The position numbers and the translations under genes are program-made. From Candidatus Omnitrophota bacterium (GTDB taxonomy: Bacteria; Omnitrophota; Gorgyraeia; Zapsychrales; Fredricksoniimonadaceae): a stretch of DNA of 64,000 nt. This document shows, piece after piece, positions 2,395 through 59,340 of this stretch. Under the pieces are notes generated by a model. That model was not told the DNA's origin and did not search any database. It was given only the letters and a program-made list of their open reading frames with translations. The DNA is taken from assembly GCA_028865345.1 (NCBI GenBank), contig JAGWKL010000008.1, positions 9,291 through 73,290 of the forward strand, written 5' to 3'. Within the stretch, counting starts at the first letter, position 1; each line of letters opens with the position of its first letter.

Positions 2395-3777
2395 TTAATG
2401 CTGGCTGCTTTTGAATTCCGCAACCAAAGCCTGGATGGTTTGTTTGGCGTCACCGAAGATCATGCGGGTGTTCTCGTAATAGAACAACTCATTTTCAATA
2501 CCGGCAAATCCTGTTGCCATTGAGCGTTTGAGAACAAAGACGGTCTTGGCTTTGTCTGCGTTGATGATGGGCATTCCGTAGATCGGGCTTGATTTATCAT
2601 GGCGTGAGGCGGGATTGACCACGTCATTGGCGCCGATGATGATGGCCACATCCACGGTGTCCATCAGGGGATTGATGGCGTCCATTTCCAACAATTGATC
2701 GTAAGGGATATTGGCTTCCGCCAAAAGGACATTCATGTGTCCGGGCATGCGGCCTGCCACGGGATGGATGGCATATTTGACATCGCAGCCGTTTTTCTCC
2801 AGGAATTCGCTGAGTTCCCGCACCGCGTGCTGGGCCTGGGCCACGGCCATGCCGTAACCGGGGATGAACACGACCGATTTGGCGTTTTCAATGATTAAAA
2901 AGGCGTCTTCGACGGACATCGCCTTGGCTTCCTTTTTCTCGTCACCGCCTGCCTTTTTGACCACGCTTCCGAAAGCTCCGAAGATGACATTGCCGATCGA
3001 ACGGTTCATGGCCTTGCACATGATGATGCTTAAGATCATCCCGTTGGCGCCAACCAAAGAACCCACAACGATCAAAAGGGTGTTGTGGATGACAAAGCCC
3101 GTGGTGCAGGCCACGATCCCCGAATAACTGTTCAACACGGAGATCACCACCGGCATGTCCGCGCCGCCGATGGGGATGACGATAAAGACACCGAAGACAA
3201 GGGACAGTCCCAGGATCATCAAAAACAGGTCATATCTGGCCGGGTGCATGATGAACAAAACGCCCAAGATAACGATCGAGGCGATGAGGGCCGTGTTGAG
3301 CCATTTTTGGCCGGTGAACACAATGGGCTTGCCCGGGATGTTTTCGCTTAATTTTCCCCAGGCGATCCCGCTTCCGGTGACGGTCAGGCCGCCGATGACA
3401 ATGGACAAATAAAGGGTGATGGCGTTGGTCAGATCCGTTGTGCCGTGCACCTGATAGGCGGTCCAATCAACGAATACGCTTGCCATGGCGCCGCAACCGT
3501 GCAGTAAGGCGATCATTTCCGGCATCTGGGTCATGGCGGCTTTGAAAGCGACCAGGGCGCCCAAGGACCCGCCGATGATAATGCCTATGGCGATCCACTG
3601 AAAGCTGATGATGTGGCCGTTGAATAAGGTGGCCAAAACCGCCAGGAGCATCCCTATGGAAGACAGGATATTACCCCGCCTGGCGGTGACAGGGGACCCC
3701 AAAAATTTCAAGCCGAAAGCAAACAGAACGGAACTGATGATATAAACGAAATTGGTGGCAAATGCGGTGTTCATCAT
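2395..3777 (-). CDS. pntB: NAD(P) transhydrogenase subunit beta.
   Basis: Multi-TM N-terminus plus C-terminal NADP(H)-binding domain (FIPGYGMAVAQAQHAVRELSEFL...GANDVVNP). Last gene of a three-gene pnt operon. Confidence 0.95.
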   Translation of the reverse strand: MMNTAFATNFVYIISSVLFAFGLKFLGSPVTARRGNILSSIGMLLAVLATLFNGHIISFQWIAIGIIIGGSLGALVAFKAAMTQMPEMIALLHGCGAMASVFVDWTAYQVHGTTDLTNAITLYLSIVIGGLTVTGSGIAWGKLSENIPGKPIVFTGQKWLNTALIASIVILGVLFIMHPARYDLFLMILGLSLVFGVFIVIPIGGADMPVVISVLNSYSGIVACTTGFVIHNTLLIVVGSLVGANGMILSIIMCKAMNRSIGNVIFGAFGSVVKKAGGDEKKEAKAMSVEDAFLIIENAKSVVFIPGYGMAVAQAQHAVRELSEFLEKNGCDVKYAIHPVAGRMPGHMNVLLAEANIPYDQLLEMDAINPLMDTVDVAIIIGANDVVNPASRHDKSSPIYGMPIINADKAKTVFVLKRSMATGFAGIENELFYYENTRMIFGDAKQTIQALVAEFKSSQH

Positions 3778-4058
3778 TATCCTTTTTTCTTAAACATTTT
3801 AAGCATGCGTTCAGTGACCAGGTATCCGCCTATGACGTTAAAGGTGGCCAAAGCCACAGCCCCCGTACCCAGGAATATCGTCAAGGGGCTGTTGGCGTCT
3901 GTTCCCGCGGCGGCCAAAGCGCCGACGATAATAATGCCGCAGATGGCGTTGGCTTCCGACATCAGGGGGGTGTGCAATAACGGAGGTACGCGGGTGATGA
4001 GCGCGAAACCCAGGAATATGGAAAGTGCCAGGATAAACAGTTGAGAAATAAGGTCCAT
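3777..4058 (-). CDS. pntAB: NAD(P) transhydrogenase subunit alpha part 2 (membrane segment).
   Basis: 93-aa, three-helix hydrophobic protein typical of split-alpha transhydrogenases. Sits between pntAA and pntB. Confidence 0.9.
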   Translation of the reverse strand: MDLISQLFILALSIFLGFALITRVPPLLHTPLMSEANAICGIIIVGALAAAGTDANSPLTIFLGTGAVALATFNVIGGYLVTERMLKMFKKKG

Positions 4059-4107
4059 AAGAATCTCCCTATTTTATGTTCTTGACCAAAAGGCCCTATT
4101 GCTTCGG

Positions 4108-5241
4108 CTACGATAGCTTTTTGACGGTTTCATTGACGATTTGCCCCTGATGGGTGATCAAAGCGCCTTTGATAATTTCATCTTCGACGTTAAGTTTAAA
4201 CGCCTTGCTGTCCTTGTCCCAGTATTCTTCCAGCAGATTATGCAAATTCGCCGAATACATCTGGCTCGCGTGCACCGCGACCCGTGCGGGAAGATTGCCC
4301 ATGCCTAAAATGCGCACGCCGTTGCCCGACACCGTTTCTTCGTTAAGTTTGGAGCCTTCTACATTCCCGCCCGACTCAACGGCCATGTCGACAACGATGG
4401 CGCCTGGCTTCATTTGGGCAATGATGTCCTTGTTCAGGACCACCGGGGCCCGCCGTCCGAAGAGCTGGGCCGTGGTGATGACAACGTCCGACTGGGCGCA
4501 AACCTTGGCCATGCCCTGGCGCTGTTTTTCCAGTTGTTCGGGAGTCAGCGCCTTGGCATAACCCTGGGCTGTCTGGCCCGTTTCCCCTAAATCGATTTCT
4601 ATAAATTTGGCGCCCAGGGATTGCACCTGTTCCTTGACCACGGGACGGGTATCAAAGGCCTCGACGCGGGCGCCTAAACGTTTGGCGGTGGCAATGGCTT
4701 GCAGGCCCGCCACCCCGGCGCCGATGATGAAAACGCGGGCAGGGGCAATGGTGCCTGCCGGCGTCATGAGCATGGGGAATATTTTAGGAAGGCGTTCAGC
4801 CGCTAAAATAACGGTCACATACCCGGCCAGGTTCGCCTGTGAACTCAATGCATCCATTTTCTGGGCCTTTGTCGTGCGGGGGATCATCTCCATGCTGAAG
4901 GCGCTGATCTGGTTTTGGGCCAGGGCCTGCACCAGATTCTTTTCATTGAACGGGTCAAGGAAACTGATATGGATGGAGCCCTTTTTCAAAAGGCCGGTCT
5001 CTTCTACGGGCGGTTTACGCAGGCGAAGGACAATATCGGCGCAGGACAGCAGGCCAGAGCGGTTGTTTTCAACCGAGGCTCCGGCCTTCTTATATTCTTC
5101 ATCGCTGATGCCGATAGAAGCCCCCAAGCCGGATTCAACGGTGATTTGGGCCCCTTTTTTGACCAGCCGGTCCACGGAAGAAGGGATGAAAGAAACCCTG
5201 GATTCTCCGGGATGCGTTTCTTTGGGAATTCCTATGATCAT
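4108..5241 (-). CDS. pntAA: NAD(P) transhydrogenase subunit alpha part 1 (alanine dehydrogenase-like dI domain).
   Basis: AlaDH/PNT N- and C-domains with NAD-binding GxGxxG (VFIIGAGVAGLQAIATAKRLGARV). Confidence 0.95.
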   Translation of the reverse strand: MIIGIPKETHPGESRVSFIPSSVDRLVKKGAQITVESGLGASIGISDEEYKKAGASVENNRSGLLSCADIVLRLRKPPVEETGLLKKGSIHISFLDPFNEKNLVQALAQNQISAFSMEMIPRTTKAQKMDALSSQANLAGYVTVILAAERLPKIFPMLMTPAGTIAPARVFIIGAGVAGLQAIATAKRLGARVEAFDTRPVVKEQVQSLGAKFIEIDLGETGQTAQGYAKALTPEQLEKQRQGMAKVCAQSDVVITTAQLFGRRAPVVLNKDIIAQMKPGAIVVDMAVESGGNVEGSKLNEETVSGNGVRILGMGNLPARVAVHASQMYSANLHNLLEEYWDKDSKAFKLNVEDEIIKGALITHQGQIVNETVKKLS

Positions 5242-6516: not shown

Positions 6517-7917
6517 ATGCCAGTTTTAGGAACACAGGAACGCCCTTTAAGGGTGGCTATTGTAGGCAGCGGTCCCAGCGGTTTTTATACGGCTGATGCC
6601 ATTTTAAGGCAGAACATAATAACAAAGGTGGATTTATTCGATAAACTGCCAGTACCCTTTGGTTTGGTGCGTCACGGGGTCGCTCCGGACCATCAAAAGA
6701 TCAAAAATGTCATCAAAATTTTTGAAAAAATCGCGGTTAACCCTCAATTTTCCTATTTTGGTAATGTTACGGTGGGCAAAAACATCGGTGTTTTTGAGTT
6801 GAACAAGTATTATGACGCGGTAGTTTTTGCTTACGGTGCGGAAACCGACCGGCATTTAGGGGTGCGCGGGGAAGATTTGGCCGGCAGTTGTACGGCCACG
6901 GAATTTGTGGGCTGGTATAACGGGCACCCGGACTTCCAGGACCGCCATTTCGACCTTTCCGGCGAAGTTGCCGTTATTGTGGGCAACGGTAACGTGGCCA
7001 TGGATGTGGCCCGGATCCTTTGTAAAACCCCGGAAGAGTTGAAGAATACGGACATCACTCAAAATGCCCTGGATGTTTTGGCGGAAAGCAAGATCAAGGA
7101 AGTGCATCTTTTTGGCCGCAGGGGGCCTGTCCAGGCTTCTTTTACATCACCGGAGCTTAGGGAAATGGGAGAATTGAGTTCTTGCTATCCTGTTGTTGAT
7201 CCAAAGGATTTACAGCTCAATGAATCCAGCCTTAAAGAGCTTCAAGACACTGCCAATGCCTGGCATAAAAAGAACTACGAGATCATGAAAAGCTATTTGT
7301 CCATCGATCCGCAGGGCCGCAAGCGTAAATTTGTCATGCATTTTTTCCGCAGTCCTGTTGAAATTATGGGAAAAGGGCGGGTGCAGAAGGCCAGGTTTGA
7401 GATCAACGCCCTGACAGGCGATCCCAATAAGCAAAAGGTCAGGGGAACAGGTAAATTTGAAGAGATCGACTGCGGCATATTCTTTCGCAGTGTCGGATAT
7501 TCAGGCACCCGCATCCAGGGTCTCCCGTTTTCCACTGAAGCAGGTATTGTTCCCAACCAGTTAGGCCGGGTCGTCGATTCCGAGCAGATTTTTACCGGTT
7601 GGTACGTGGCCGGCTGGATCAAAAGAGGCGCTGTAGGCATTATCGGGTCCAATAAACCTGATGCCGAAGAGACGGTCAGGTCCCTTATGGAGGACATAGG
7701 GCATTTAAACCCCTGTGAGATCCCCAGCAGCGAAGAATTGCTCAAACTTTTAAGATCCAGGGAAGCCATGGTCGTCACCTTTGACGATTGGAAGAAGATC
7801 GATGCCGCAGAGATCCAGCGGGGGGTCCAGTTGGGCAAACCCAGGGAAAAATTCGCCCGCATCACGGGGATGCTATCCGCTATTTTCAACAGAATACATC
7901 CGGAAAAAAAGTATTAG
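6517..7917 (+). CDS. fprA: FprA/adrenodoxin-reductase-like NADPH:ferredoxin oxidoreductase.
   Basis: N-terminal FAD GxGxxG (VAIVGSGPSGFY) and second NADP GxGxxA/G (VAVIVGNGNVAMDVARIL). Colinear similarity to mycobacterial FprA across the whole length. Confidence 0.8.
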   Translation: MPVLGTQERPLRVAIVGSGPSGFYTADAILRQNIITKVDLFDKLPVPFGLVRHGVAPDHQKIKNVIKIFEKIAVNPQFSYFGNVTVGKNIGVFELNKYYDAVVFAYGAETDRHLGVRGEDLAGSCTATEFVGWYNGHPDFQDRHFDLSGEVAVIVGNGNVAMDVARILCKTPEELKNTDITQNALDVLAESKIKEVHLFGRRGPVQASFTSPELREMGELSSCYPVVDPKDLQLNESSLKELQDTANAWHKKNYEIMKSYLSIDPQGRKRKFVMHFFRSPVEIMGKGRVQKARFEINALTGDPNKQKVRGTGKFEEIDCGIFFRSVGYSGTRIQGLPFSTEAGIVPNQLGRVVDSEQIFTGWYVAGWIKRGAVGIIGSNKPDAEETVRSLMEDIGHLNPCEIPSSEELLKLLRSREAMVVTFDDWKKIDAAEIQRGVQLGKPREKFARITGMLSAIFNRIHPEKKY

Positions 7918-8104: not shown

Positions 8105-8132
8105 AAATTCCATAAGTTTGGGTAATTTTAAA

Positions 8133-8164
8133 CCCTTCGCCGAAGTTTTGGTGAAGGGTTTTTT
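8133..8164 (+). terminator. Rho-independent terminator or attenuator between the small ORF and giant-protein gene A.
   Basis: 9-bp stem CCCTTCGCC/GGTGAAGGG with one G-U wobble, an 8-nt loop, then TTTTTT. Confidence 0.55.
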
Positions 8165-8318
8165 AATTTATTTGTAAGTCCATATTTTATATATAGTTGT
8201 AATGTATTGTGGTTTTGCCCCTTGTATCTTGTCATGAGACGTGTTATCTTTTCTTTATTCAGGTAAGCGTTTTCTTTGGCCGGATCAGCCGGCACTCACA
8301 GTTGTTCCTCCGGGCGCT

Positions 8319-11300
8319 ATGTTCAAAAGACCGTTAAGTCTGCTCATTATTTTTGCTTTTGTTTTAACATCCATAGGCCCTCTTTGCCCTGTTCCATGCT
8401 CTGCAGCAGTGGATGGATTAGGCCTGCCGGCGCCTGGGACCATGGTCAATTTAAGCCCGGCCTACCAACCGGTCATCATCAGAGGTTTGACCGTCCATAA
8501 AGACAACCCTTTCTTGTTCGACTTTATCGTGGATACCGGCCAGGATCACATGTCCGGAGAGCCTTTGAAAAAAGAAGGCGAAAAGCTCATCAAGTATTTT
8601 TTAGCCTCCCTGAGCATCCCTGACAAAGACGTATGGGTCAACCTCTCACCTTATGAGAAAGACAAGATCATTCCTGAAGTTTTAGGCCGGACGGGTATGG
8701 GCCGCGACCTTCTGGAGGAGGACTATATCCTAAAGCAGGTCACAGCTTCTCTCATTTATCCGGAGAGGCAATTAGGCAAGACCTTCTGGGACACGGTGTA
8801 TGCCAAGGCCCGGGCTATGTACGGCACAACGCAGATACCGGTCAATACCTTTAACAAGGTCTGGATCATGGCAGACAGGGCGCAGGTTTATGAGCATGGG
8901 CAAACCGCCTTTGTGGTGGATAGTCATTTAAAGGTGATGCTGCAAGAGGATTACCTGGCCCTGAAAAATCACGAAGGAGCGGTCGCGCATCCCCAAGGGG
9001 CGAAGCAATCACATTCCCTTGTCTCTCAAATTGTCCGTCAAATCATCCTTCCCCAACTTGAAAAAGAAGTCAATACCGGCAAGAACTTCGCTAAGCTTAG
9101 ACAAATATTCAATTCCATCATCCTGGCCAACTGGTACAAGAGGAATTTAAAGCAGGCGCTTCTCAACCAGGTATATGCCGATAAAGGGAAGGTCAAAGGC
9201 ATAAATTTAAACGATCCCAACGTCAAGGAACGGATTTATGAGCAATACCTGAAAGCCTACAAAAAGGGGGTCTTCAATTATATTCAGGAGGACATTAACG
9301 CCTCCGATGGTGCAAAGATACCAAGAAAATATTTTTCAGGAGGTATCAATGAGGGCATGGCTGCTGATCCTGCCATAACCCATGATGCGGCGGCTTTGGC
9401 CGCATCCTTGCCCCGCAGGACCATGGTTGATTTTATGACTGAAGCTTCCCCCTATACGGATAGGGCCATGAGTCATCGGAATGCTGTAAAGACCAAAACG
9501 GATTACAGGACAAAAAAGGATTTGGAGTACCCGTCGATCGAAGATCAGATAAACATAATAGCGGGGGTCAGAAGGTCTGTTATGGAACATCCTCCTGTTA
9601 AAGGGCAAAATTCAAAATACAGAATCCGCATCCTGAGCGCCCAATTCCTTGAGAAAAAAAGTGAGACGGGCTATTTGGAAAGTTTATACAGGTCCCCCGC
9701 ACTGGAGCAATTAAGGGAAAAAGGATACGCATTGAAAAAGGACGACAACGGGCTTTATCTGGAACGTAAGATTATTTCCCGGGAAGATCTATTGCGTATT
9801 TTCGCAGGGGTCTTGGGGAAATTACGGAGGGATTATTGGAAGGATGTCGTGCCCTTATATGGGCAGGGCAAGCTGTCTGAGAAAGATGTCCGCAGGGTTT
9901 CTTATCCGTCGGCCGGCATGGGATTGATTAAAGATGCCGGTGCTGTTTTTGATAACGGCAGGCTCTTGACATCCGGCCGGGATATTCAACAAGTTATTGG
10001 TAAAAATGCTTTTGTGCTTTGGCCGGCGGACGGTCAGAAAAATCTTTCATTTGCACTGGTCTTTACCGGCCGGGGCGGGGCGGTTCTTGACGCGGCGAGG
10101 GCATCTAAACCCGATGCCGCCATGACCGGCAGGGGCAAAAAGACCCATCCTCTCTATTTGAAAGTGCAGTCTTTATTTTCACAACCGCTTCAATTTGCCG
10201 ATGCGGTGGCCCGCGTCCCCGGGAAAAATGGAGGGGATGAAATCCGTATTAAACGCGAAAGTCCGGGCAGTTATCTTGTTCAACGGACCCTGCTTCCCGG
10301 CCCCGTACGCATAGAAAACAGCCAGGATAAGAATTTTTCTTTTAACTTTGCAATACGGGGTGGCCAATTCGTTATAGCTACCAACGCCATGGCCCCGGAT
10401 AGCGTGAAGTTTGTTTTTGAGCAAAAGAAACTGGAATGGGGGCCGGATCAATCCGTCAAAGAGGAAGTAACGACTAAAAAAAGAGAAATAAGAAATCTCA
10501 GCCTTAATCACTTTAACAGGCTGGGCGGCCTTTCCAATGGAGAGAGGATAGAAATTAATTTCGGCTACTACACACAGAAAATAGTTTTGACCTACAGGGA
10601 TGGGAGTCTGTTTTTGGAAAAGCCCTTTGAGTTGTCATCGAGGAATTCGATTTCTTTTGAGAGAAAAGACGGGACATATATATTGCGGGCTTCGGCGCAT
10701 TCGCATTTTGATCAGGCGAACATCAAAATTTATGCTGATACGGAATTTTCTTACAGGCCGATGCTTCCGGGCGGGCAAGCCGACCGGGCGATGACAAGCG
10801 CTCAAAAAAGGGTCGAAAGCAGTTTGCAGGACTTGATCGGGGAGGGTTTAGGGGTCATACACCCGGAAATCCTGGGCATTCTATCCATACCGGCCGTTTT
10901 AAAGGGGGGGAAAATAAGGGATGTGGAAAGCATTTTTGTTCATTTGAGGCAATTTGTTCCGATAACCCAGGAAGGTAAAATGTGGAACTCCACATTAAAT
11001 GACGAAGAGGCTGCTTTTTTAACTTGGGCGGTGATGATCAGAGACCAAACTAAAATTGAGAAGCTCTTAAGAAATTTTTATGGCAAATTCTCTTTAGGAT
11101 TGAATAGAAGAATATACCGTAGCGAAGCCGTTTTTTTGACCGTGGCTGCGGCGATCAGGGGCGGGGATGACGCTGCCGGTGAGGTGGAAAATGATTTTGA
11201 ACGGTTTGTGACTCCGGTGGAGAAAGGCGGGTATGGGCTGAAAGGACATTTTGCAAGTCTATTGACGATCGCGGCGCAATTGATGGAAAGAAAAGATATT

Positions 11301-11789
11301 CAGCGGCTCATGGATGTTTATGATTATTGGCATGTGAAAAAACAACAGGGACCGGAAGTGGCGGCGGTGTTGTCCATGGCGACGGTGAGTAAGGGGGCGG
11401 ATATTGAAAATGGGGAACATGAGATTAAAGGCGACTTTAAATTTAAGAAGAAATTAAGTTTGGACGGCAGGGAAGTGGAGCTTAATGAAAAAGCCCGTTC
11501 CTTTCTTGCCCTTGCCTGCGCCTTGGCCGATACCTCCGACGCGGCGATGACGGGGGCCCCTTTCGTTCCTGCCATGGCCGCCCAAAATCCCGGCGGTATC
11601 GATTTGAGCACCTCCGGCGGCATGCAGTGGAAAATCCGCAAGGATGGAGCCGGCGTCGAAATGAACATCGACCCTGCCATGGCGGCACGGATACGGGCGC
11701 GCGGCATCGACGGGCTTTCGCCGGTTATTTTCAAGATCACGCCGGTTACCGACGTCTGGGTGCTGGCCGGCTTGAAAGCCCCCGCCTGA
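8319..11789 (+). CDS. Giant secreted protein A (about 1156 aa mature). Unassigned family; paralog of the protein at 55660-59340.
   Basis: Signal peptide MFKRPLSLLIIFAFVLTSIGPLCPVPCSAA. About 330 aa after it align with paralog B (PGxMVNLSP, KYFLASLxIPD, VNLSPYEK, MGRDLLExDYILKQ, VNTFNKVWI, SHLKVMLxEDYLxLK, KKGVFNYIxED, IPRKYFxGG). The ORF stays open back to a GTG at 8241, but the ATG at 8319 starts the signal peptide. Confidence 0.7.
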   Translation: MFKRPLSLLIIFAFVLTSIGPLCPVPCSAAVDGLGLPAPGTMVNLSPAYQPVIIRGLTVHKDNPFLFDFIVDTGQDHMSGEPLKKEGEKLIKYFLASLSIPDKDVWVNLSPYEKDKIIPEVLGRTGMGRDLLEEDYILKQVTASLIYPERQLGKTFWDTVYAKARAMYGTTQIPVNTFNKVWIMADRAQVYEHGQTAFVVDSHLKVMLQEDYLALKNHEGAVAHPQGAKQSHSLVSQIVRQIILPQLEKEVNTGKNFAKLRQIFNSIILANWYKRNLKQALLNQVYADKGKVKGINLNDPNVKERIYEQYLKAYKKGVFNYIQEDINASDGAKIPRKYFSGGINEGMAADPAITHDAAALAASLPRRTMVDFMTEASPYTDRAMSHRNAVKTKTDYRTKKDLEYPSIEDQINIIAGVRRSVMEHPPVKGQNSKYRIRILSAQFLEKKSETGYLESLYRSPALEQLREKGYALKKDDNGLYLERKIISREDLLRIFAGVLGKLRRDYWKDVVPLYGQGKLSEKDVRRVSYPSAGMGLIKDAGAVFDNGRLLTSGRDIQQVIGKNAFVLWPADGQKNLSFALVFTGRGGAVLDAARASKPDAAMTGRGKKTHPLYLKVQSLFSQPLQFADAVARVPGKNGGDEIRIKRESPGSYLVQRTLLPGPVRIENSQDKNFSFNFAIRGGQFVIATNAMAPDSVKFVFEQKKLEWGPDQSVKEEVTTKKREIRNLSLNHFNRLGGLSNGERIEINFGYYTQKIVLTYRDGSLFLEKPFELSSRNSISFERKDGTYILRASAHSHFDQANIKIYADTEFSYRPMLPGGQADRAMTSAQKRVESSLQDLIGEGLGVIHPEILGILSIPAVLKGGKIRDVESIFVHLRQFVPITQEGKMWNSTLNDEEAAFLTWAVMIRDQTKIEKLLRNFYGKFSLGLNRRIYRSEAVFLTVAAAIRGGDDAAGEVENDFERFVTPVEKGGYGLKGHFASLLTIAAQLMERKDIQRLMDVYDYWHVKKQQGPEVAAVLSMATVSKGADIENGEHEIKGDFKFKKKLSLDGREVELNEKARSFLALACALADTSDAAMTGAPFVPAMAAQNPGGIDLSTSGGMQWKIRKDGAGVEMNIDPAMAARIRARGIDGLSPVIFKITPVTDVWVLAGLKAPA

Positions 11790-11908: not shown

Positions 11909-12397
11909 ATGAAAAATCTGGTGCTGGTCGTGGTGGCGGTATTTGTACTGACAACGTTTATCGGCTGCAACAAAAAGAAAGAGCAAGAAGCTTTTGACAA
12001 CGGGGTTTCCACGGAAAATTCAGTTTCTGTTTCTGACAATTCCGCTCAAAATGTTGATATGAGCAACTCTATTCCTGTCGTCGTTGAAAATTCATCGGCC
12101 GCTTCCCAGGAGGTCAGCGAGCCTGCCATGGCCCCCAGTTCCGCGACGGGCACGGCCAGGCCCTCCAACAGTAAACAAATCCAGCAGGCCTTGAAAAACG
12201 CCGGCTTTTACAGCGGCGCCATCGATGGCAAGATCGGGCCGATGACCAAAAGGGCCGTCGAAGCTTTTCAGAAAAAGAACGGTTTGAAAGCCGACGGCAA
12301 GGTCGGTCCGAAAACATGGCAGGTTCTGTCCGGTTATTTAAATAAGGATGCGGAGGTGCCTAATCCTTCCGCCGAGAGTCAGGCCGTCGCGCAGTAA
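11909..12397 (+). CDS. Lipoprotein with a C-terminal peptidoglycan-binding (PG_binding_1-like) domain.
   Basis: Lipobox TTFIGC. C-terminal IQQALKNAGFYSGAIDGKIGPMTKRAVEAFQKKNGLKADGKVGPKTW matches the PG-binding repeat. Confidence 0.7.
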   Translation: MKNLVLVVVAVFVLTTFIGCNKKKEQEAFDNGVSTENSVSVSDNSAQNVDMSNSIPVVVENSSAASQEVSEPAMAPSSATGTARPSNSKQIQQALKNAGFYSGAIDGKIGPMTKRAVEAFQKKNGLKADGKVGPKTWQVLSGYLNKDAEVPNPSAESQAVAQ

Positions 12398-22916: not shown

Positions 22917-23798
22917 ATGGACAAATTAGACGCCCTGGAATCTCAAAGCGTTTATATATTGCGTGAAGCTTACCGCGAATTCAAGTCCCTGGTGATGTTG
23001 TGGTCCATCGGCAAAGACTCCACGGTGCTTCTGTGGCTGGCGCGCAAGGCCTTTTTCGGCCATGTGCCGTTTCCCCTGGTGCATATCGATACCAGCTATA
23101 AGATCCCTGAAATGATCCGCTACAGGGATGAACTTGCGCTCAAGTTCAAATTGAACATGATCGTGGGACAGAATACCATGGCCCTGAAGGAAAAACGCAC
23201 ATTTCCCGACGGCACCCTGGACCGCATCAATTGCTGCAAGGCCTTGAAGACCGATGCGCTGAAAAACACCCTTGCAGGCAGCTGGCCGCGCCTGCGCCTT
23301 AACCATCAGAGCGCTAAGTACGAGGTGGATACCAATACAGAACCGTATACCGGAGTCATCGTCGGTGCCCGCGCGGACGAGGAAGGTTCCCGTTCCAAGG
23401 AACGCTATTTTTCCCCGCGTGACCGCAACAGCGATTGGGATGTCGGCGACCAGCCGCCGGAATTATGGAACCAGTTCAAGACGGACTTTGCCCCGGGCAC
23501 CCATATCCGCATCCACCCATTGCTGGATTGGACGGAACTCAATATTTGGGAATACATCCAGCGTGAGAACATTCCCATCACTCATCTGTATTTTGACCAG
23601 GGCAACGGCAAACGCTACCGTTCATTGGGCTGCTATCCCTGCACCATGCCGGTCGAGTCCCATGCTCAAAACGTGGACGATATCGTCAAGGAATTGCGGG
23701 AAGGCAAATTCAAGAACATTGCCGAGCGCTCCGGCCGCGCCCAGGACAAGGAAGACGGCGGCGGCCTTGAGACCCTGCGCAAGGAAGGGTACATGTAA
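22917..23798 (+). CDS. cysD: Sulfate adenylyltransferase subunit 2.
   Basis: [22 protein letters not shown]...[14 protein letters not shown]-loop. Confidence 0.95.
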
Positions 23799-26027: not shown

Positions 26028-26070
26028 ACGGGCACTTTTATTTTAAATAAAGGTGCCCGTTTCCTTTTTT
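26028..26070. terminator. Bidirectional intrinsic terminator between the convergent small secreted gene and sulfite reductase.
   Basis: ACGGGCAC / GTGCCCGT stem with an AT-rich loop. T-tract on the + side (TTCCTTTTTT) and a weaker one on the - side. Confidence 0.6.
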
Positions 26071-27892: not shown

Positions 27893-28012
27893 AGGAACGC
27901 TTATTTTAACTGAATACCGACGAAAGTCAATATAACTGTGCAATTATGGAAGGTCTATTTGGTTTAGGAAAAAGTGCCCCCTTTTTATTTTTTATGATAA
28001 GATGAATTTCCA

Positions 28013-39546: not shown

Positions 39547-39894
39547 ATGCACGAGGGACATTTCACGGAAAATATCGTCAAGGCCATCATCGGAGAACTT
39601 AAAAAATACCCGGGCCGGGGGGTTGAGTCCGTCACCGTAAAGGTGGGCGAGACCTATCACCTGCTGCCGGATTCGGTATTGATGCATTATGATCTGTTGG
39701 CCAAAGGGACTGAATTGGAAGGGGTCAGGCTCGAGCTTTTGGAAGAGCCCATGTTGGTCGCCTGCAGCCAATGCGGCCGGCAGGGGCCTGTGGAAGACCA
39801 TCATCTTCCTTTGTGCTCTTTTTGCCATTCCCGTTTGGTCAAACCTGTGTCCGGAGAAAAAGTCACCATCGAACAGATTAAATTCAAGCCATGA
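39547..39894 (+). CDS. hypA: Hydrogenase nickel-insertion protein HypA.
   Basis: MHEGHF N-terminal Ni site. Zn site CSQCG...CSFCHS. Confidence 0.9.
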   Translation: MHEGHFTENIVKAIIGELKKYPGRGVESVTVKVGETYHLLPDSVLMHYDLLAKGTELEGVRLELLEEPMLVACSQCGRQGPVEDHHLPLCSFCHSRLVKPVSGEKVTIEQIKFKP

Positions 39895-55546: not shown

Positions 55547-55659
55547 AGTAGTCCCGCTGCGGCTTGACAAAGACTATTTTATATGGCACTCTTTACTTAG
55601 GATGTGGATGAAGGCGGGAGAGAGGTATGTCCCCATATACCCTGAATATTAAAAAATCT

Positions 55660-58600
55660 ATGTTTTTAAAGTTACGCAGGATCGTTTCTATTGTTATTAT
55701 ATCGGCTTTTATGACCACCTCGGTCAGGACGCCGGCCTGGGCGCAGTCCTCTGTAGGCCTGCTGCCCAATCTGCCGCCTCCGGGGGCGATGGTAAATTTA
55801 AGCCCCGATTTTACGCCTGCCCATCTGATGGGCATTACCATCCATCCCGATAACCCCTTAAAGTTTGATTTCTTGATCGATAATGGCGACCAGGAAATGG
55901 ACAGCGTCCAAAAGCGGGAGGAATATCAAAAACTGGTAAAGTATTTTTTGGCCTCCCTGACCATCCCCGATGGCCACCAGTGGGTGAACCTTTCGCCTTA
56001 TGAAAAGGGACGCATCATCCAGAATGATTTCGGCAAAACACAGATGGGCCGGGATTTGCTGGAGCAGGATTACATCCTCAAGCAGATCACCTCAAGTTTG
56101 ATCTATCCTGAAAGCCGTTTGGGCAAGGAATTCTGGGACAAGGTCTATCAACGCGCCTGGAATGAATACCACACGACCGACATCCCGGTCAATACCTTTA
56201 ACAAAGTATGGATCGTGCCTGACCAGGCCGTAGTTTACGAAAGCGGCGACAGCGCCTATATCCTCCAGAGCCATTTAAAGGTGATGCTGGAAGAAGACTA
56301 CCTCTCCCTGAAAGAACATACGGCCATTTCCTCTTCCGATGTCAATGCCGTTGCCAATGACACCCATGCCATCGGTTCCCAGGTGATCCGCGAGATCGTC
56401 CTTCCTGAACTTCAAAAAGAGGTCAATGAAGACAAGAATTTTGAAAGCCTGCGCCAGATGTACAGCGGGATGGTCCTGGCGACCTGGTATAAAATGGCAT
56501 TGAAGAAATCTCTCTTGGGGATGATTTACGCGGACAAGGCCAAGGTCAAGGGCGTTGACCAGGACCCCAGGACCAACCAATTAATATACAACCAGTATTT
56601 GCGCGCGTTTAAAAAGGGCGTGTTCAACTATATTAAGGAAGATGTGGACAAATTCACAAATGAGGAGATCCCCAGGAAATATTTTGCGGGCGGGTTTCAG
56701 CCCCTGGAGGGGGCTGATGAAATAAGAGATATAGGCCAGGCGCAACAGGCGGTTCAGGAGAGTAGAAGCAACCCGCTGCCCCGGGAGTTTGTCGTCAAAG
56801 CCAATCAGGGAGAGAATGTGGCGAATGTGGCGCCAACCATCAACACTCTTCTTGGAGGCCGGCCCATTTCTGTTGACTGGCAGAAGCCGGAGAATTTCAA
56901 TGTTGCCGTTGTTGATTTAAGCCAGGCAAACCAGAACCCCGGTGGAGTTTCCGGCAACGCCACGACTGTCGCGCAGAGTGAAGCGCAAAAATTTGTAAAC
57001 TTTATGCAGGAGAGGGAACTCCCGGTGCCGGCCAATCTGCCTGCAGACCAACTGGCCAGGGCCAAGCAGGGGGAAAAGAATTGGCAAATCAGCAATGCCA
57101 TGCGCCAGCAGCTGCAGCAATGGTACAAGGGCAATGATCAGTATGATCCCATGGTGGATTCCATTTTTAAGCATTTGGATTATGAATACGATCAGGCAAC
57201 GGACAATTTTAAGGTTGTCTATTCCAATCCGGCGATGACGTCCAACGGAGAAATAACTGACGCGACTTTTTCCAGAATTTCCCGCCGGTTGAACCAAAAC
57301 CCTGCTATCAGCCGGTTATTGGAGAATCCCATTACCCGGGATTTCTATGATAAGACACTTAATTCCAATTTGACCAATCCCGGGAAATTGCAGCGTATCC
57401 GTCAACGGTTGGATGATTTAAGGCCGGGTTTGGGGCAAACGGTGGATTCCATCGTTGCAGAGGTCCAGGCGGATCAAAGTGCGAACAGGGCGATGACCAC
57501 GGTCCTGGTCATTGATGATGATCCCGTGATGCTGGATATCAATAAAGCGGTATTGTCCCGTGCCGGTTATAATGTTTTAACCGCCCAGACCGAGCAGGAA
57601 GCTGAAACATCTTGGCAGGAGAATAAAGATAATATAGGCCTTATCCTTAGCGACACCCATAACACAGGGCAAAAGGATTGGCCTGATTTGGTGAAAGGAT
57701 TCGTGGCGCAGAAAAATGTCCCTGTTCTTGCCACCAGCGGGTTGGCAACCCAGCAAGCCTGGCAGGGGATCACCGATCATTTTCTTCCCAAGCCGTATTC
57801 CATTCATGTTTTAACCTCTGCAGTTCAGGGAATTTTGTCCGCCAATCAGCCTGCAGTTGATCAGGCCATGGCGTCAAATACCGGGAGTTGGTTGAAGGAG
57901 AAGATCTTGCCGCTGGTAGGAGCGGTTGCGGTAGGGGGCGTCGTTGCGGGGGCAATAAGCATGCCTTCCTATTTACATCAGCGGGAATTAAACAAGATCT
58001 CTTTGGTCCAACCCGGACAGATTGCGTCTATAAACAACCAGGCGGCAAGGGTCGTGGTCAATACCGGCGGAGTGGGTGTCGTCATTACCCAGCCGGGCAG
58101 GCCGATCAGGATCATCAGTGTCAATCCCAACAATGTTGCCGACGTTGCTCAGCAATTGTTGCAGGAATATCCGGCCGGCATCAATAATGCCGTTATCCAT
58201 GTTTTTGCCGATGGTGACGGTGAACGGGGAGCGGGCAATGCATTGTCGATGGCTTTGTTGGGTAAAGAGAATATCTCTGATCATCACATTTATCTTGAAC
58301 ATGCGGCGCCGTTTAATTTGGTGGCTCATCCCCTGGGCAGCGGAAGCGATTTTGTAAGGATTGAAAATGGGGACGGGATGGAGCATCATTATGTGGAGAC
58401 AAAGGGTGTTTTAATTCAGTTGCCCAAGAACAATCCCAACCCGGCCATGGCCTCCAACAGCAAAATAAATCGGATCAGAGAAAGGCTTGTGACGGCAGCC
58501 ACGCTGGCCGGCATCTCAGCGGCCGCGCTGTTTCTTGCTCCCGGGGCCGCAAAGAATGTCCAGATAGCCATCAAGGAACATAGAATTCCTTTGAAAAGCG

Positions 58601-59340
58601 GGATCCAAACCGGAGAGGGTGCGTATACGGTCAATGAAAATGAGGCGGCGGTCGCTTTTTCAGTTGAAGGTCAGCCCAATTTTGCTTATGCAGGCGTTGT
58701 AGGGACAAACGATTCTCAAGAAATACAGAACCTTACTAAAATAAAAACGGATTTACGGCAAAAATACCCCCACACCCAAATTTACATGGATTATTGGACC
58801 TATGGGCGGATGACTGAAGACGGAAGGTATATGCAGGATCACGCGGGCAATATCATAAGCAGCATACCGGCGGCCCCCGGCTTTGAGGTCCGGGTCCATC
58901 ATCTTCCCTTTGAACCGACGGAGCCCAGCGCTCCTCTTCCCTATGGATTTTACGTCAAGGGGCCGATCATTCATGTGGATACCCAAACCTTGGGCACCAC
59001 CGGCGGCTATTGGTATGCCAATAACACCGGGAACGGTTTGACGCATGCCCCGGCAGGTTATACGGATAATGCCATGGCGATCCGGCAACAAACGAACAGC
59101 GAGTCAGCGTTAATCGCCGAATCCCTGACTAAAAAAGGTGGTATCGACTTAAACGCCGCCAACCTGAATTTATTCATCAAACGCGACGGCAGCGGCGTGC
59201 CGCTGCCCTGGGCCCAGCAGGACATCTCCCTGTTTAAGAACATCCAGGGTTTTGTTCCCCAAATCGTCGAGATCCGGCCTGCCGTCGACATTTCCGTCAT
59301 CAACGAACTGCAACAGAAGCTGCAATCTTTCCAGAATTAA
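55660..59340 (+). CDS. Giant secreted/membrane protein B (about 1226 aa). Paralog of protein A, with an internal CheY-like receiver domain and two hydrophobic segments.
   Basis: Signal peptide MFLKLRRIVSIVIISAFMTTSVRTPAWA. About 330-aa N-domain colinear with protein A. Receiver-like segment at about 57495-57840 (TVLVIDDDP...GLILSD...LATSG...LPKPYS). Hydrophobic helices at about 57904-57966 and about 58500-58560. C-terminal GGIDL...KRDGSGV module. The ORF is open back to an ATG at 55627. Confidence 0.7.
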   Translation: MFLKLRRIVSIVIISAFMTTSVRTPAWAQSSVGLLPNLPPPGAMVNLSPDFTPAHLMGITIHPDNPLKFDFLIDNGDQEMDSVQKREEYQKLVKYFLASLTIPDGHQWVNLSPYEKGRIIQNDFGKTQMGRDLLEQDYILKQITSSLIYPESRLGKEFWDKVYQRAWNEYHTTDIPVNTFNKVWIVPDQAVVYESGDSAYILQSHLKVMLEEDYLSLKEHTAISSSDVNAVANDTHAIGSQVIREIVLPELQKEVNEDKNFESLRQMYSGMVLATWYKMALKKSLLGMIYADKAKVKGVDQDPRTNQLIYNQYLRAFKKGVFNYIKEDVDKFTNEEIPRKYFAGGFQPLEGADEIRDIGQAQQAVQESRSNPLPREFVVKANQGENVANVAPTINTLLGGRPISVDWQKPENFNVAVVDLSQANQNPGGVSGNATTVAQSEAQKFVNFMQERELPVPANLPADQLARAKQGEKNWQISNAMRQQLQQWYKGNDQYDPMVDSIFKHLDYEYDQATDNFKVVYSNPAMTSNGEITDATFSRISRRLNQNPAISRLLENPITRDFYDKTLNSNLTNPGKLQRIRQRLDDLRPGLGQTVDSIVAEVQADQSANRAMTTVLVIDDDPVMLDINKAVLSRAGYNVLTAQTEQEAETSWQENKDNIGLILSDTHNTGQKDWPDLVKGFVAQKNVPVLATSGLATQQAWQGITDHFLPKPYSIHVLTSAVQGILSANQPAVDQAMASNTGSWLKEKILPLVGAVAVGGVVAGAISMPSYLHQRELNKISLVQPGQIASINNQAARVVVNTGGVGVVITQPGRPIRIISVNPNNVADVAQQLLQEYPAGINNAVIHVFADGDGERGAGNALSMALLGKENISDHHIYLEHAAPFNLVAHPLGSGSDFVRIENGDGMEHHYVETKGVLIQLPKNNPNPAMASNSKINRIRERLVTAATLAGISAAALFLAPGAAKNVQIAIKEHRIPLKSGIQTGEGAYTVNENEAAVAFSVEGQPNFAYAGVVGTNDSQEIQNLTKIKTDLRQKYPHTQIYMDYWTYGRMTEDGRYMQDHAGNIISSIPAAPGFEVRVHHLPFEPTEPSAPLPYGFYVKGPIIHVDTQTLGTTGGYWYANNTGNGLTHAPAGYTDNAMAIRQQTNSESALIAESLTKKGGIDLNAANLNLFIKRDGSGVPLPWAQQDISLFKNIQGFVPQIVEIRPAVDISVINELQQKLQSFQN

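What the first reader, a model, noticed from the sequence alone, without database searches (positions are those of the whole stretch)
8319..11789. Two giant paralogous secreted proteins (8.3-11.8 kb and 55.7-59.3 kb) of no family I recognise
The two proteins (about 1150 and about 1230 aa) both begin with Sec signal peptides. They then share a colinear domain of about 330 aa with long identical blocks: PGxMVNLSP, KYFLASLxIPD, VNLSPYEK, MGRDLLExDYILKQ, LIYPExxLGKxFWD, VNTFNKVWI, SHLKVMLxEDYLxLK, VYADKGKVKG, KKGVFNYIxED and IPRKYFxGG. After that their middles diverge completely, before both end in a related C-terminal module. I see no HExxH, GDSL, Walker, LRR or other classical motif. I also see nothing that ties them to known adhesin, S-layer, toxin or autotransporter architectures. 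Two such copies 44 kb apart on the same strand of a housekeeping region suggests a lineage-specific exported protein family with a constant N-terminal anchoring or enzymatic module and variable payloads. This is the best candidate in the window for an undescribed system.
Basis: seen in the sequence. Interest (0 to 1): 0.8.

Follow-up and report, generated by a model that had tools for sequence, protein, structure and literature searches.

The report
Omnitrophota capped cargo-carrier protein family
The two proteins belong to a very large, unnamed family found so far only in Omnitrophota genomes, in which an export signal, a constant head and a constant tail frame a string of unrelated whole-protein "cargo" modules joined by a strict four-residue junction that may be a cutting site.

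Summary
Protein A (8319-11789, 1156 aa) and protein B (55627-59340, 1237 aa) share a 352-aa N-terminal region (53% identity, E 3e-119) and a weaker C-terminal module.

Every complete member is built as Sec-type signal peptide, N-cap of about 350 aa, variable cargo, then C-cap of about 65-85 aa. In other members the cargo includes whole cytoplasmic-type proteins (PGK, enolase, hexokinase, response regulators). In A and B only B's receiver domain is recognisable.

Modules are separated by a strict junction [D/N/S]-x-A-M, about 20-fold over chance. A sister clade uses S-S-P-[VILM] instead. The two caps diverge together (r 0.70), while cargo is almost never shared.

My best reading is an exported carrier or polyprotein frame whose junctions are recognition sites, probably for a protease. 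Export and cleavage are inferred, not shown. I rate the family as undescribed and of high interest.

The parts
8319..8405 (+). Protein A signal peptide (aa 1-29, MFKRPLSLLIIFAFVLTSIGPLCPVPCSA|A)
   Evidence: Basic n-region, hydrophobic core and small-x-small site, aligned with the family consensus ..AHA|D. The family consensus start MFKK.LSL supports the ATG at 8319 rather than the GTG at 8241. A terminator-like hairpin at 8130-8161 separates A from the upstream gene.
8406..9458 (+). Protein A N-cap (aa 30-380): conserved domain ending in RKYFSGG (aa 336-342), plus a strand-helix-strand extension
   Evidence: 53% identical to B. 55-83% identical to thousands of homologues, always at residues ~30-350. 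AF2 model pLDDT 75, pTM 0.73, with the extension at pLDDT ~85. No fold or sequence relative.
9459..9470 (+). Junction 1 of A: D381-R-A-M384
   Evidence: The motif is ~20-fold enriched in the family.
9468..10121 (+). Cargo module A2 (aa 384-601), no recognisable family
   Evidence: No Pfam, NCBIfam or PDB hit. No homologue outside its own cluster in 5.8 billion proteins.
10113..10124 (+). Junction 2 of A: D599-A-A-M602
10122..10790 (+). Cargo module A3 (aa 602-824)
   Evidence: Weak homology to modules in other family members: P0073 E 5e-8, P0114 E 2e-5.
10782..10793 (+). Junction 3 of A: D822-R-A-M825
10791..11546 (+). Cargo module A4 (aa 825-1076), no recognisable family
11538..11549 (+). Junction 4 of A: D1074-A-A-M1077
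11547..11789 (+). Protein A C-cap (aa 1077-1156: ..NPGGIDLSTSGGMQWKIRKDGAGVEMNIDPAMAARIRARGIDGLSPVIFKITPVTDVWVLAGLKAPA) and stop codon
   Evidence: The same module ends 160 of 196 collected family proteins. AF2 alone gives pLDDT 73 but pTM 0.29, so it is not an autonomous globular domain.
55627..55743 (+). Protein B signal peptide region (aa 1-39; the family consensus suggests the true start may be M12 at 55660)
   Evidence: NCBI annotates the 1237-aa form.
55744..56706 (+). Protein B N-cap (aa 40-360, RKYFAGG at aa 350-356)
56707..57234 (+). B segment aa 361-536 (N-cap extension and/or first cargo; no junction inside), ending in junction N534-P-A-M537
57235..57492 (+). Cargo module B2 (aa 537-622), ending in junction N620-R-A-M623
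57493..57867 (+). Cargo module B3 (aa 623-747): a complete response-regulator receiver domain that starts at the junction Met (M|TTVLVIDDD) and ends in junction D745-Q-A-M748
   Evidence: Pfam Response_reg E 2.2e-7, 31.5 bits against a 30.2 cut-off, profile positions 1-110 of 111. PDB receiver domains match at E down to 5e-6. The DD, D, T/S and K-P active-site residues are present on reading the sequence.
57868..58446 (+). Cargo module B4 (aa 748-940): starts MASN.., with a TM-like segment at aa 759-777; ends in junction N938-P-A-M941
58447..59073 (+). Cargo module B5 (aa 941-1149): starts MASN.., with a TM-like segment at aa 954-972; ends in junction D1147-N-A-M1150
59074..59340 (+). Protein B C-cap (aa 1150-1237, divergent subtype ..KKGGIDLNAANLNLFIKRDGSGVPLPWAQQD..GFVPQIVEIRP..) and stop codon
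   Evidence: 33% identity to A's C-cap. It resembles the C-cap subtype of the SSP-junction clade. B is divergent in both caps: N distance 0.44, C distance 0.69.

Best explanation
A and B are two members of a very large, unannotated protein family found so far only in Omnitrophota genomes. The family works as a constant 'frame' for variable cargo. Each member has a cleavable Sec-type signal peptide, a ~350-aa N-cap of unknown fold, one to ten or more cargo modules, and a ~65-85-aa C-cap.

Each cargo module has the size of a whole protein, and where a family is recognisable (PGK, enolase, ACP, receiver domains) it starts at about the residue where the free-standing protein would. Each module is preceded by a strict junction [D/N/S]-x-A-M.

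Proposed mechanism:
1. The signal peptide takes the chain across the inner membrane.
2. The two caps, which diverge in step, are the parts recognised by a conserved partner: each other, or an export, anchoring or processing machine.
3. The junctions are sequence-specific recognition sites, most likely endoprotease sites cut at A|M. Cutting would release the modules as separate proteins, so the gene would encode an exported polyprotein.

Shown here: the architecture, family size and distribution, absence from known families, signal-peptide features, junction statistics and specificity, a second clade-specific junction, co-divergence of the caps, and cargo diversity.

Inferred, not shown: actual export, actual cleavage, the identity of the protease, and where the cargo acts (periplasm, surface, or a host or prey cell). 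I put about 0.9 on the family and architecture description and about 0.35 on proteolytic processing at the junctions.
For: Family size and range:
- 4,057+ hits sharing only the N third of A.
- 8,040 representatives at 50% identity, with the domain always at residues ~30-350.
- At least 592 confirmed genomic matches. The 80 loci fetched are all from MAGs labelled Omnitrophota or 'uncultured Planctomycetales', with up to 6 loci per MAG among the best 80 and 2-3 genes per 17-kb locus in places.

Architecture:
- The C-cap is present in 160 of 196 collected proteins.
- Signal-peptide features are present in ~95% of complete N-termini.

Cargo:
- Full-length PGK (E 1e-90, profile positions 3-379 of 379) begins 8 residues after a junction Met. 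Enolase, hexokinase, isocitrate lyase plus malate synthase, glutamate dehydrogenase and adenylate kinase are also found.
- B's receiver domain starts at the junction Met.
- 549 modules fall into 469 BLAST clusters, 424 of them singletons.

Junction:
- 691 [DN]xAM observed against 34.8 +/- 5.9 in shuffles. D.AM is the most enriched gapped 4-mer (26x). Mean spacing is ~220 aa.
- Density is 2.04 per 1000 aa in family ORFs against 0.21 in neighbouring ORFs.
- The window's other ORFs have 4 in 15,777 aa.
- Specificity is strict. P1 is only Ala, P1' is only Met (L/I/V not enriched), and P3 is D, N or S but not E.
- Codons vary and the DNA context is unlike real gene starts in the window, so conservation is at protein level.
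- A sister clade uses SSP[VILM] at the same positions (before receiver-domain starts and before the C-cap). The two junction types never occur together: 50, 5 and 0 with both, of 71. Clade-specific strict short motifs at equivalent positions are what co-evolving protease sites look like.

Caps:
- N-cap and C-cap divergence correlate with Mantel r 0.70, against a maximum of 0.20 in 500 permutations.
- The C-cap alone is not predicted to be globular, as expected for a docking or signal segment.

Against: - No experiment or proteomic datum was available, so cleavage and export are pure inference.
- No protease was identified. No neighbour gene is conserved across 82 loci.
- The N-cap has no invariant Cys or His. 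It is therefore not a classical Cys, Ser-His-Asp or HExxH protease. A Ser/Lys dyad is not excluded.
- 16 of 71 genomic members have neither junction type, and some very long members have none.
- Much of the cargo needs cytoplasmic co-substrates (ATP-dependent kinases, receiver domains, ACP, sigma-54 AAA, HTH). These have no obvious role after Sec export.
- 25 of 146 full-length members have a single TM-like segment, which would put the two caps on opposite sides of the membrane if the chain is uncut. The predictor used was crude.
- The N-domain model is only moderately confident (pLDDT 75), so 'no structural relative' is a weak negative.
Confidence: 0.45

Rival explanations
1. These are uncleaved envelope-display or scaffold proteins. 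The N-cap, after Sec export, anchors the chain to a conserved envelope component. The cargo is displayed in the periplasm or on the surface. The junctions are only structural hinges or helix caps between domains. This would resemble the SLH or CWB2 cell-wall protein families, which have one anchoring module and many payloads.
For: - The N-cap is extremely conserved (55-83% identity across the phylum) and has many invariant aromatic residues, as expected for binding one invariant partner.
- Signal-peptide features are present.
- There are many dispersed paralogues per genome with different payloads.
- P3 D/N/S are good helix N-cap residues.
- LysM and other envelope-type domains occur among the cargo.
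Against: - A hinge would not need Ala-only at P1 and Met-only at P1', nor a mutually exclusive second motif in another clade.
- Thr, also a good N-cap residue, is not enriched at P3.
- Most identifiable cargo is cytoplasmic-type enzymes and regulators.
- There is no SLH, CWB2, PG-binding or other anchor signature in the N-cap.
Confidence: 0.25
2. These are effector-delivery proteins of a host-dependent or predatory bacterium. The caps are the translocation apparatus or secretion signals. The cargo modules are effectors, including metabolic enzymes, that are released inside a host or prey cell. This is analogous to MARTX toxins or polymorphic toxins. It is compatible with, and a special case of, the polyprotein reading.
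For: - Constant ends flank a hyper-variable array of modules with conserved inter-module sites.
- Cytoplasmic-type cargo would make sense inside another cell.
- Omnitrophota are described as host-dependent nanobacteria (PMC10066038 title and abstract). Their giant proteins are read as extracellular effectors.
- The top, non-significant Foldseek hits are ClyA-type pore-forming toxins (NheA E 0.34; MakE).
- From my own knowledge, not tested here: microsporidia and chlamydiae export hexokinase or glycogen enzymes into the host compartment.
Against: - No toxin, RTX, cysteine-protease-domain or immunity-gene signature.
- The Foldseek hits are at chance level (probability 0.11, TM 0.14).
- No secretion-system genes are linked.
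- The window's organism encodes sulfate-assimilation, hydrogenase-maturation and transhydrogenase genes. This window therefore shows no obvious metabolic reduction, though it covers only 64 kb.
Confidence: 0.15
3. The junction Met residues are relics of, or still serve as, start codons. The genes are in-frame concatenations of former separate genes, perhaps with internal translation initiation, and the motif has no role at the protein level.
For: - In the D-x-A-M clade each module starts with Met at about the residue where the free-standing protein would start: receiver domain, ACP, enolase and PGK.
- P2' is T/A/S, as in ordinary N-termini.
- One standalone neighbour protein aligns end to end with a module.
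Against: - The residues before the Met are just as strict (Ala-only P1; D/N/S P3), which a start-codon relic does not explain.
- The upstream DNA is G+C-rich with varying codons and no Shine-Dalgarno-like pattern, unlike real gene starts in the window.
- The SSP clade has junctions with no Met at all (SSP|IKKILVVDD).
- Split copies break inside modules through frameshifts, not at junctions.
Confidence: 0.1
4. This is an assembly or annotation artefact, or a recent segmental duplication.
For: None beyond the presence of two similar N-termini in one window.
Against: - The copies are only 53% identical in protein sequence and unrelated in the middle.
- Both occur with exactly the window's sequences in one NCBI MAG and in the same 90%-identity clusters in three more, on contigs of 83-106 kb.
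- Thousands of homologues exist.
Confidence: 0.01

Closest known systems
Omnitrophota very long 'multi-enzyme' proteins and Archaeovorins (bioRxiv 10.64898/2026.06.07.730766; bioRxiv 10.1101/2023.11.21.568195)
   Same: - Same phylum.
- A signal peptide and/or TM segments, followed by many unrelated, normally cytoplasmic Pfam domains tiled along one polypeptide (hexokinase, receiver domains, methyltransferases and others).
- Cleavage into several products has been suspected for the giants.
- Some members of this family are still open after more than 3,000 aa at the end of the fetched locus.
   Different: - Those papers treat proteins of roughly 5-147 kaa; A and B are 1.1-1.2 kaa.
- In the passages I searched, neither paper describes a shared N-cap, a C-cap or a junction motif. 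One states that cleavage points are unknown.
- Giants are flanked by T2SS or pilus loci. These genes have no conserved neighbours.
- I could not test whether the giants carry this N-cap or these junctions.
MARTX toxins (multifunctional autoprocessing RTX toxins)
   Same: Conserved N- and C-terminal regions flank an exchangeable array of effector modules separated by short conserved processing sites. This comparison rests on my knowledge of the family.
   Different: - No RTX repeats, no cysteine protease domain and no T1SS context here.
- A Sec signal peptide is present instead.
- The cargo is housekeeping-type proteins rather than toxins.
- No homology was found.
Polymorphic toxin systems (CdiA, Rhs and similar; PMC3482391)
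   Same: A constant trafficking part, hyper-variable payloads and a short conserved demarcation motif at the payload boundary (for example VENN in CdiA).
   Different: - Several payloads per protein, plus a constant C-terminal cap.
- No adjacent immunity genes.
- The payloads are not toxin families.
Viral-type polyproteins with clade-specific protease sites
   Same: Whole proteins are concatenated in one ORF and separated by strict short motifs that differ between clades (D-x-A-M versus S-S-P-V/I/L).
   Different: - This is a cellular, Sec-targeted, multi-copy gene family.
- No protease domain was identified, and cleavage has not been demonstrated.
Secreted proteins with C-terminal sorting domains (T9SS CTD, T1SS C-terminal signals, LapA/LapG-type adhesins)
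   Same: - A signal or retention module at one end and a conserved ~60-80-aa C-terminal element at the other.
- LapG cuts at a di-alanine site (T/A/P-A-A-G/V), and the preferred junction here is D-A-A-M. CtpA cuts pre-D1 at L-D-L-A|A. Both cleavage sites are recalled from memory and were not tested.
   Different: - No Pfam or NCBIfam match to any CTD or sorting-signal model.
- The C-cap is not a predicted beta-sandwich.
- T1SS substrates lack Sec signal peptides.
- No RTX repeats are present.

Membership tests
Sec (SPase I) secretory proteins | N-terminal basic n-region, hydrophobic h-region and small-x-small cleavage site | tested here: met
   157, 159 and 148 of 162 complete N-termini meet the three criteria. 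The consensus is ..AHA|D. A has ..CSA|A and B has ..AWA|Q. These were rule-based tests only; SignalP and DeepTMHMM were not available.
Any curated protein family (Pfam-A, NCBIfam, PADLOC, PHROGs) for the shared N and C modules | Profile match at or near the curated threshold | tested here: not met
   - A: 0 families in Pfam and NCBIfam at E<=1.
- 46 N-domains scanned at E<=10 gave no consistent family; DUF896 matched 10 of 46 with a best E of 0.0098.
- PADLOC and PHROGs gave nothing in the caps.
Any protein of known structure | Sequence or fold similarity to a PDB chain | tested here: not met
   - phmmer and profile searches found nothing.
- Foldseek best E was 0.34.
- The model pLDDT is 75, so this is a moderate-strength negative. 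AFDB libraries were unavailable.
MARTX / RTX toxins | RTX nonapeptide repeats, a cysteine protease domain and T1SS genes | tested here: not met
   No HemolysinCabind or Peptidase_C80 hit at E<=1. No conserved neighbours.
Polymorphic toxin systems | A C-terminal toxin domain with an adjacent cognate immunity gene | tested here: not met
   The cargo families are housekeeping enzymes and regulators. No recurrent downstream gene was found in 82 loci.
T9SS cargo, autotransporters, SLH / S-layer proteins and C-terminal sorting tags (PEP-CTERM, LPXTG and similar) | A Por_Secre_tail CTD; a beta-barrel translocator; SLH repeats; or a motif plus TM helix plus basic tail | tested here: not met
   No such Pfam or NCBIfam model matches A or B at E<=1. 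The C-cap ends in ..WPLVGLQAP with no TM helix.
Response-regulator receiver domain (module B3 only) | A Pfam PF00072 match above the gathering score, and the DD / D / T-S / K active-site set | tested here: met
   31.5 bits against a 30.2 cut-off, profile positions 1-110 of 111. PDB receiver domains match at E 5e-6. IDDD, LILSD, ATSG and LPKP are seen in the sequence.
Omnitrophota very long multi-enzyme proteins (bioRxiv 2026) | A signal peptide or TM segments plus tiling of many unrelated Pfams, at multi-kaa length (the preprint's analyses quote >=10 kaa) | tested here: inconclusive
   The tiling and signal peptide are met at family level. The length criterion is not met by A or B. Five family ORFs exceed 3,000 aa and run off their loci. 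Whether the giants share the N-cap or junctions could not be tested.
Polyprotein processed at the junctions | Demonstrated cleavage products and a cognate protease | not testable with these tools
   Only indirect evidence is available: motif strictness, position and clade-specific alternatives.

The most novel reading that the evidence does not exclude
Omnitrophota use a bacterial polyprotein strategy across the phylum. Whole genes are concatenated in frame behind an export cap and closed by a tail cap. They are then cut at clade-specific junction sites (D/N/S-x-A|M, or S-S-P|V/I/L) by an as yet unidentified protease, releasing native-like enzymes and regulators outside the cytoplasm or in a host or prey cell. 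The same junctions would be the missing cleavage points of the phylum's giant (10-147 kaa) ORFs.
Probability: 0.3. Interest if true: 0.9.

Novelty: categorically new. Interest (0 to 1): 0.82.

Why it matters
If the description holds, one of the largest protein families of a whole bacterial phylum is entirely unannotated. It comprises at least 8,000 clusters at 50% identity, with several to many copies per genome. Its head has no detectable fold relative.

Its logic, a constant head and tail around freely exchanged whole-protein cargo with strict junction motifs, has no homologous precedent in bacteria.

It also bears on an open question stated in the Omnitrophota giant-protein literature: are these huge multi-enzyme ORFs cut, and where? 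The D/N/S-x-A-M and S-S-P-V/I/L motifs are concrete candidate sites that can be checked in existing metaproteomes.

The finding raises the further puzzle of why kinases, glycolytic enzymes, ACP and response regulators sit behind a Sec signal peptide in ultra-small, possibly host-dependent cells.

Tried and rejected
- **Housekeeping genes that merely gained tags.** The adenylate-kinase fusion P0021 is not in the secY-adk-map operon, and the RpoA-CTD fusion is not in a ribosomal cluster. They appear to be extra copies, though the presence of a standalone copy in the same genome was not checked.
- **A conserved partner gene next door** (protease, chaperone or secretion system). None was found in 82 loci. 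The top 'clusters' were antisense ORF artefacts and generic response regulators.
- **Junction as a DNA-level recombination site or translation-initiation context.** Codons vary and the context differs from real starts.
- **Even number of TM segments, so that both caps lie on one side of the membrane.** Not supported: the counts are 0 in 113, 1 in 25, 2 in 6 and 3 in 2 members.
- **Cargo-free ancestral form (N-cap joined directly to C-cap).** None was found. The shortest complete members are ~606-618 aa, and shorter ones are truncated.
- **Natural gene fission at junctions.** The split copy in L004 breaks inside modules with overlapping frames, which indicates frameshifts.
- **Foreign origin of the cargo, judged by composition.** The GC content of the modules equals that of the genome.
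- **Phage association.** Only 3 hits in 2.9 million IMG/VR contigs.
- **C-cap search in the 5.8-billion-protein database.** It returned only 6 short fragments because of the word-index limit, so it was uninformative.
- **A's cargo.** It has no homologue outside its own cluster.
- **Literature.** No paper contains the signature peptides, and none pairs Omnitrophota with 'polyprotein'. Seymour et al. 2023 contains none of the searched terms for secreted or uncharacterised proteins.

Full report
**1. The observation**

The window holds two long + strand ORFs. A runs from 8319 to 11789 (1156 aa from the ATG). B runs from 55627 to 59340 (1237 aa).

BLASTP of A against B gives 53% identity over 352 residues at the N-terminus (E 3e-119). 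A second weak match covers the last ~60 residues (33%, E 5e-4). Nothing matches in between. tblastn with the N-domain and the C-terminal pieces finds only these two N-domain copies in the 64 kb.

Both proteins occur in NCBI MAGs named 'hypothetical protein'. One MAG (KGJ09) holds exactly the window's sequences, and three more (KGJ61, KGJ95, KGI24) hold members of the same 90%-identity clusters. This excludes an assembly artefact.

The window's genes around them are ordinary housekeeping: pntAB, an ExbB-type protein, QueH, NUDIX, a two-component pair, MutY, cysteine synthase, CysN/C, sulfite reductase, ADP-forming acetyl-CoA synthetase, HypF and HemN/HemE. A terminator-like hairpin at 8130-8161 separates A from the upstream gene.

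**2. What the conserved ends are**

All share only the first third of A, at 54-76% identity. Hit lengths are 685-2009 aa.

An exhaustive HMMER search with the N-domain alone found 8,040 representatives at 50% identity with E<=1e-3, and 6,237 with E<=1e-30. The domain always sits at about residues 30-350.

The best 80 are all from MAGs labelled Omnitrophota or, for one submitter's series, 'uncultured Planctomycetales'. One is the named species Candidatus Aceula lacicola. Individual MAGs contribute up to six loci to the best 80. Some 17-kb loci hold two or three family genes.

Of the 196 proteins collected, 160 end in the same module: '..GGIDLNTSNGMQWKVSKDGKGVEMNIDPAMIERIRREGIDSLSPVIFRITPV.SIWPLVGLQAP..'. 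The rest are truncated or divergent.

The N-termini look like classical Sec signal peptides with consensus ..AHA|D. Of 162 complete N-termini, 157 have a basic n-region, 159 have a hydrophobic core and 148 have a small-x-small site.

**3. No known relatives**

- Neither cap matches anything in Pfam, NCBIfam, PADLOC or PHROGs.
- Scanning 46 N-domains at E<=10 gave no consistent weak family.
- Sequence and profile searches of the PDB were empty.
- An AlphaFold2 model of A's N-cap from a 66-sequence alignment has pLDDT 75 and pTM 0.73. It is a mixed alpha/beta fold with two beta-hairpins and very long helices. The segment after RKYFSGG packs back at pLDDT ~85.
- The C-cap modelled alone has locally confident helices but pTM 0.29. 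It is not an autonomous globular domain.
- The N-cap has no invariant Cys or His. Its invariant polar residues include S84, S118, K113, K154, K248, D109, D185, E87 and E224 in model numbering.
- No paper in the library contains the signature peptides, and none pairs Omnitrophota with 'polyprotein'.

**4. The cargo**

Between the caps, the hits carry very varied, normally cytoplasmic domains:

- malate synthase with isocitrate lyase
- adenylate kinase
- enolase
- hexokinase
- glutamate dehydrogenase
- ACP
- PGK
- RpoA-CTD
- transaldolase
- aminotransferase
- sigma-54 AAA
- XRE HTH
- receiver domains
- RelA/SpoT
- methyltransferases
- LysM

Re-scanning six of them confirms real domains. PGK matches at E 1e-90 over profile positions 3-379 of 379. 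Hexokinase matches at E ~1e-25, and its module's closest PDB chain is human hexokinase 2 (E 4e-44).

Cutting 190 proteins at the junctions gives 549 modules in 469 BLAST clusters, of which 424 are singletons.

A's own cargo (aa 384-1076) has no homologue outside its own cluster. The exception is weak similarity of module A3 to modules of three other members.

B carries a complete receiver domain. The Pfam match is E 2.2e-7, above threshold, and the active-site residues are all present. B also has two modules that each begin 'MASN..' followed by a TM-like segment.

The fusions are not the housekeeping copies in their usual operons. No neighbour gene is conserved. Cargo GC content equals that of the genome.

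**5. The junction motif**

Every module boundary in A carries [D/N]-x-A-M: D381RAM, D599AAM, D822RAM and D1074AAM. So do those in B: N534PAM, N620RAM, D745QAM, N938PAM and D1147NAM.

Statistics:

| Measure | Value |
|---|---|
| [DN]xAM in 152,621 cargo residues of 188 proteins | 691 observed, 34.8 +/- 5.9 in shuffles |
| Enrichment of D.AM (the most enriched gapped 4-mer) | 26x |
| Mean spacing | ~220 aa |
| Density in family ORFs, 82 loci | 2.04 per 1000 aa |
| Density in neighbouring ORFs | 0.21 per 1000 aa (the top scorers there are broken family genes) |
| The window's other ORFs | 4 in 15,777 aa |

The motif is strict. P1 is Ala only, with G/S/T at background. P1' is Met only, with L/I/V at or below background. 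P3 is D (26x), N (12x) or S (5x) but not E. P2 prefers Ala and P2' prefers Thr.

Codons vary (GAT/GAC, GCC/GCG), and the context is unlike the AT-rich, Shine-Dalgarno-bearing starts of the window's real genes.

In this clade the Met lies at or near where the free-standing protein would start: receiver domain M|TTVLVIDDD, ACP, enolase and PGK.

A more divergent clade has no D-x-A-M at all. It carries S-S-P-[VILM] at the same places: 3-10 per protein against <=0.12 expected. The motif sits directly before receiver-domain starts (SSP|IKKILVVDD) and before the C-cap (SSPLGGINLN). Of 71 genomic members, 50 are DxAM-type, 5 are SSP-type, 16 have neither and none has both.

B combines D/N-x-A-M junctions with a C-cap that resembles the SSP clade's subtype.

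**6. The caps evolve together**

Over 141 proteins with both caps, pairwise divergence of the N-cap and of the C-cap correlate with Mantel r 0.70. The maximum in 500 permutations was 0.20. The cargo between them is almost never shared. The frame is therefore inherited or co-evolves as a unit while its contents turn over.

**7. Interpretation**

Shown:
- a very large, unannotated family found so far only in Omnitrophota genomes
- a fixed architecture of signal peptide, N-cap, [junction-module]n, junction and C-cap
- cargo that in many members is recognisable as a whole protein
- strict, clade-specific junction motifs

Inferred:
- The chain is exported by Sec.
- The caps are what a conserved partner recognises.
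- The junctions are recognition sites, most plausibly for an endoprotease cutting A|M. Three points support this: Ala-only P1, linker-like P4 residues (Pro/Ser/Ala-rich), and two mutually exclusive motifs in two clades.

That would make these genes exported polyproteins. I give this about 0.35.

The main rivals are as follows:

| Rival | Probability | Main point against it |
|---|---|---|
| Uncleaved envelope-display proteins | 0.25 | Motif strictness and the second, mutually exclusive junction |
| Effector delivery into a host or prey cell | 0.15 | Compatible with cleavage; no toxin, immunity or secretion-system signature |
| Start-codon relics or internal initiation | 0.10 | Disfavoured by the SSP clade, the strict P1 and P3, and the DNA context |

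Unresolved difficulties:
- No protease was identified.
- Cytoplasm-dependent cargo sits behind a Sec signal.
- 16 of 71 members lack either junction.
- 25 of 146 members have a single TM-like segment.

**8. Relation to what is known**

Two preprints describe Omnitrophota giant proteins with a signal peptide or TM segments and tiled 'multi-enzyme' Pfam content. They suspect cleavage, and one says that cleavage points are unknown.

This family shows the same tiling at 0.7 to more than 3 kaa. Five ORFs are still open after more than 3,000 aa at the end of the fetched locus. It adds a defined head, tail and junction, which I did not find described.

By analogy only, it resembles MARTX toxins, polymorphic toxins and viral polyproteins. 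Their defining features were tested and not met: RTX repeats and a cysteine protease domain, immunity genes, and an identified protease.

**9. Verdict**

The family is real, very large and, in the literature I could search, undescribed. The mechanism remains inferential. Interest is high, because a concrete and checkable candidate for processing sites in Omnitrophota multi-enzyme proteins comes out of it.

Noticed in passing
L046, L050, L035, L078 (for example L046 protein residues 1328 and 1458): A divergent clade of the same family uses a different junction, S-S-P-[V/I/L/M]. It sits directly before receiver-domain starts and before the C-cap, and it never occurs together with D-x-A-M. A few other members show 'SSA[IV]' just before GGIDL/GGVDF.
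   Followed up: partly
L064, L068, L039, L059, L030 (ORFs starting near locus position 7800-7880): Family ORFs are still open after 3,019-3,059 aa where the fetched locus ends. Some members are therefore much longer than A and B, and may connect to the Omnitrophota giant proteins.
   Followed up: no
P0019 residues ~700-1150 (family member, not in the window): The cargo module is a hexokinase of the Hexokinase_1/Hexokinase_2 families. All its PDB matches are eukaryotic (best: human HK2, E 4e-44). It sits behind a Sec signal peptide.
   Followed up: partly
P0011 and P0014 (family members, not in the window): Malate synthase and isocitrate lyase, the two glyoxylate-shunt enzymes, are carried together in one ~1,940-aa family protein.
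   Followed up: no
window 57868-59073 (B residues 748-1149): Two consecutive cargo modules in B both begin M-A-S-N, then a basic stretch, then a TM-like segment. They look like two copies of a small membrane-anchored protein. Only ~2.5% of modules in the family start with such a segment.
   Followed up: partly
window 11909-12397 (+): Directly downstream of A lies a 162-aa protein with an N-terminal signal or lipoprotein-like sequence (..TTFIGC..) and a PG_binding_1 domain (E 3.7e-21). It is not conserved next to other family genes.
   Followed up: partly
window 8130-8161 (+): A strong terminator-like hairpin (14-bp stem plus T-run) lies between the upstream oxidoreductase gene and A. A therefore appears to be its own transcription unit.
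   Followed up: no
L004 7911-11999: One family gene in a MAG (isolate MFD01476.bin.2.120) is split into three overlapping-frame ORFs (713, 466 and 219 aa). The breaks fall inside modules, so this is probably frameshift error or a pseudogene.
   Followed up: yes
C-termini of many family members (for example P0045, P0060, P0087): A subset carries an extra conserved tail after the C-cap, ending ..(K)EEERLAGV-COOH.
   Followed up: no
window 23798-25603, 26069-27943 (-), 39891-42170, 2395-5241 (-): The window encodes a fused CysN/CysC, a sulfite or nitrite reductase, HypF and PntAB. This window therefore shows a fairly broad metabolic gene set for this Omnitrophota MAG.
   Followed up: no
L083-L085 (IMG/VR contigs): Three contigs classified as viral carry family members (56-60% identity in the N-cap). 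I did not examine whether these are prophage regions or misclassified cellular contigs.
   Followed up: no
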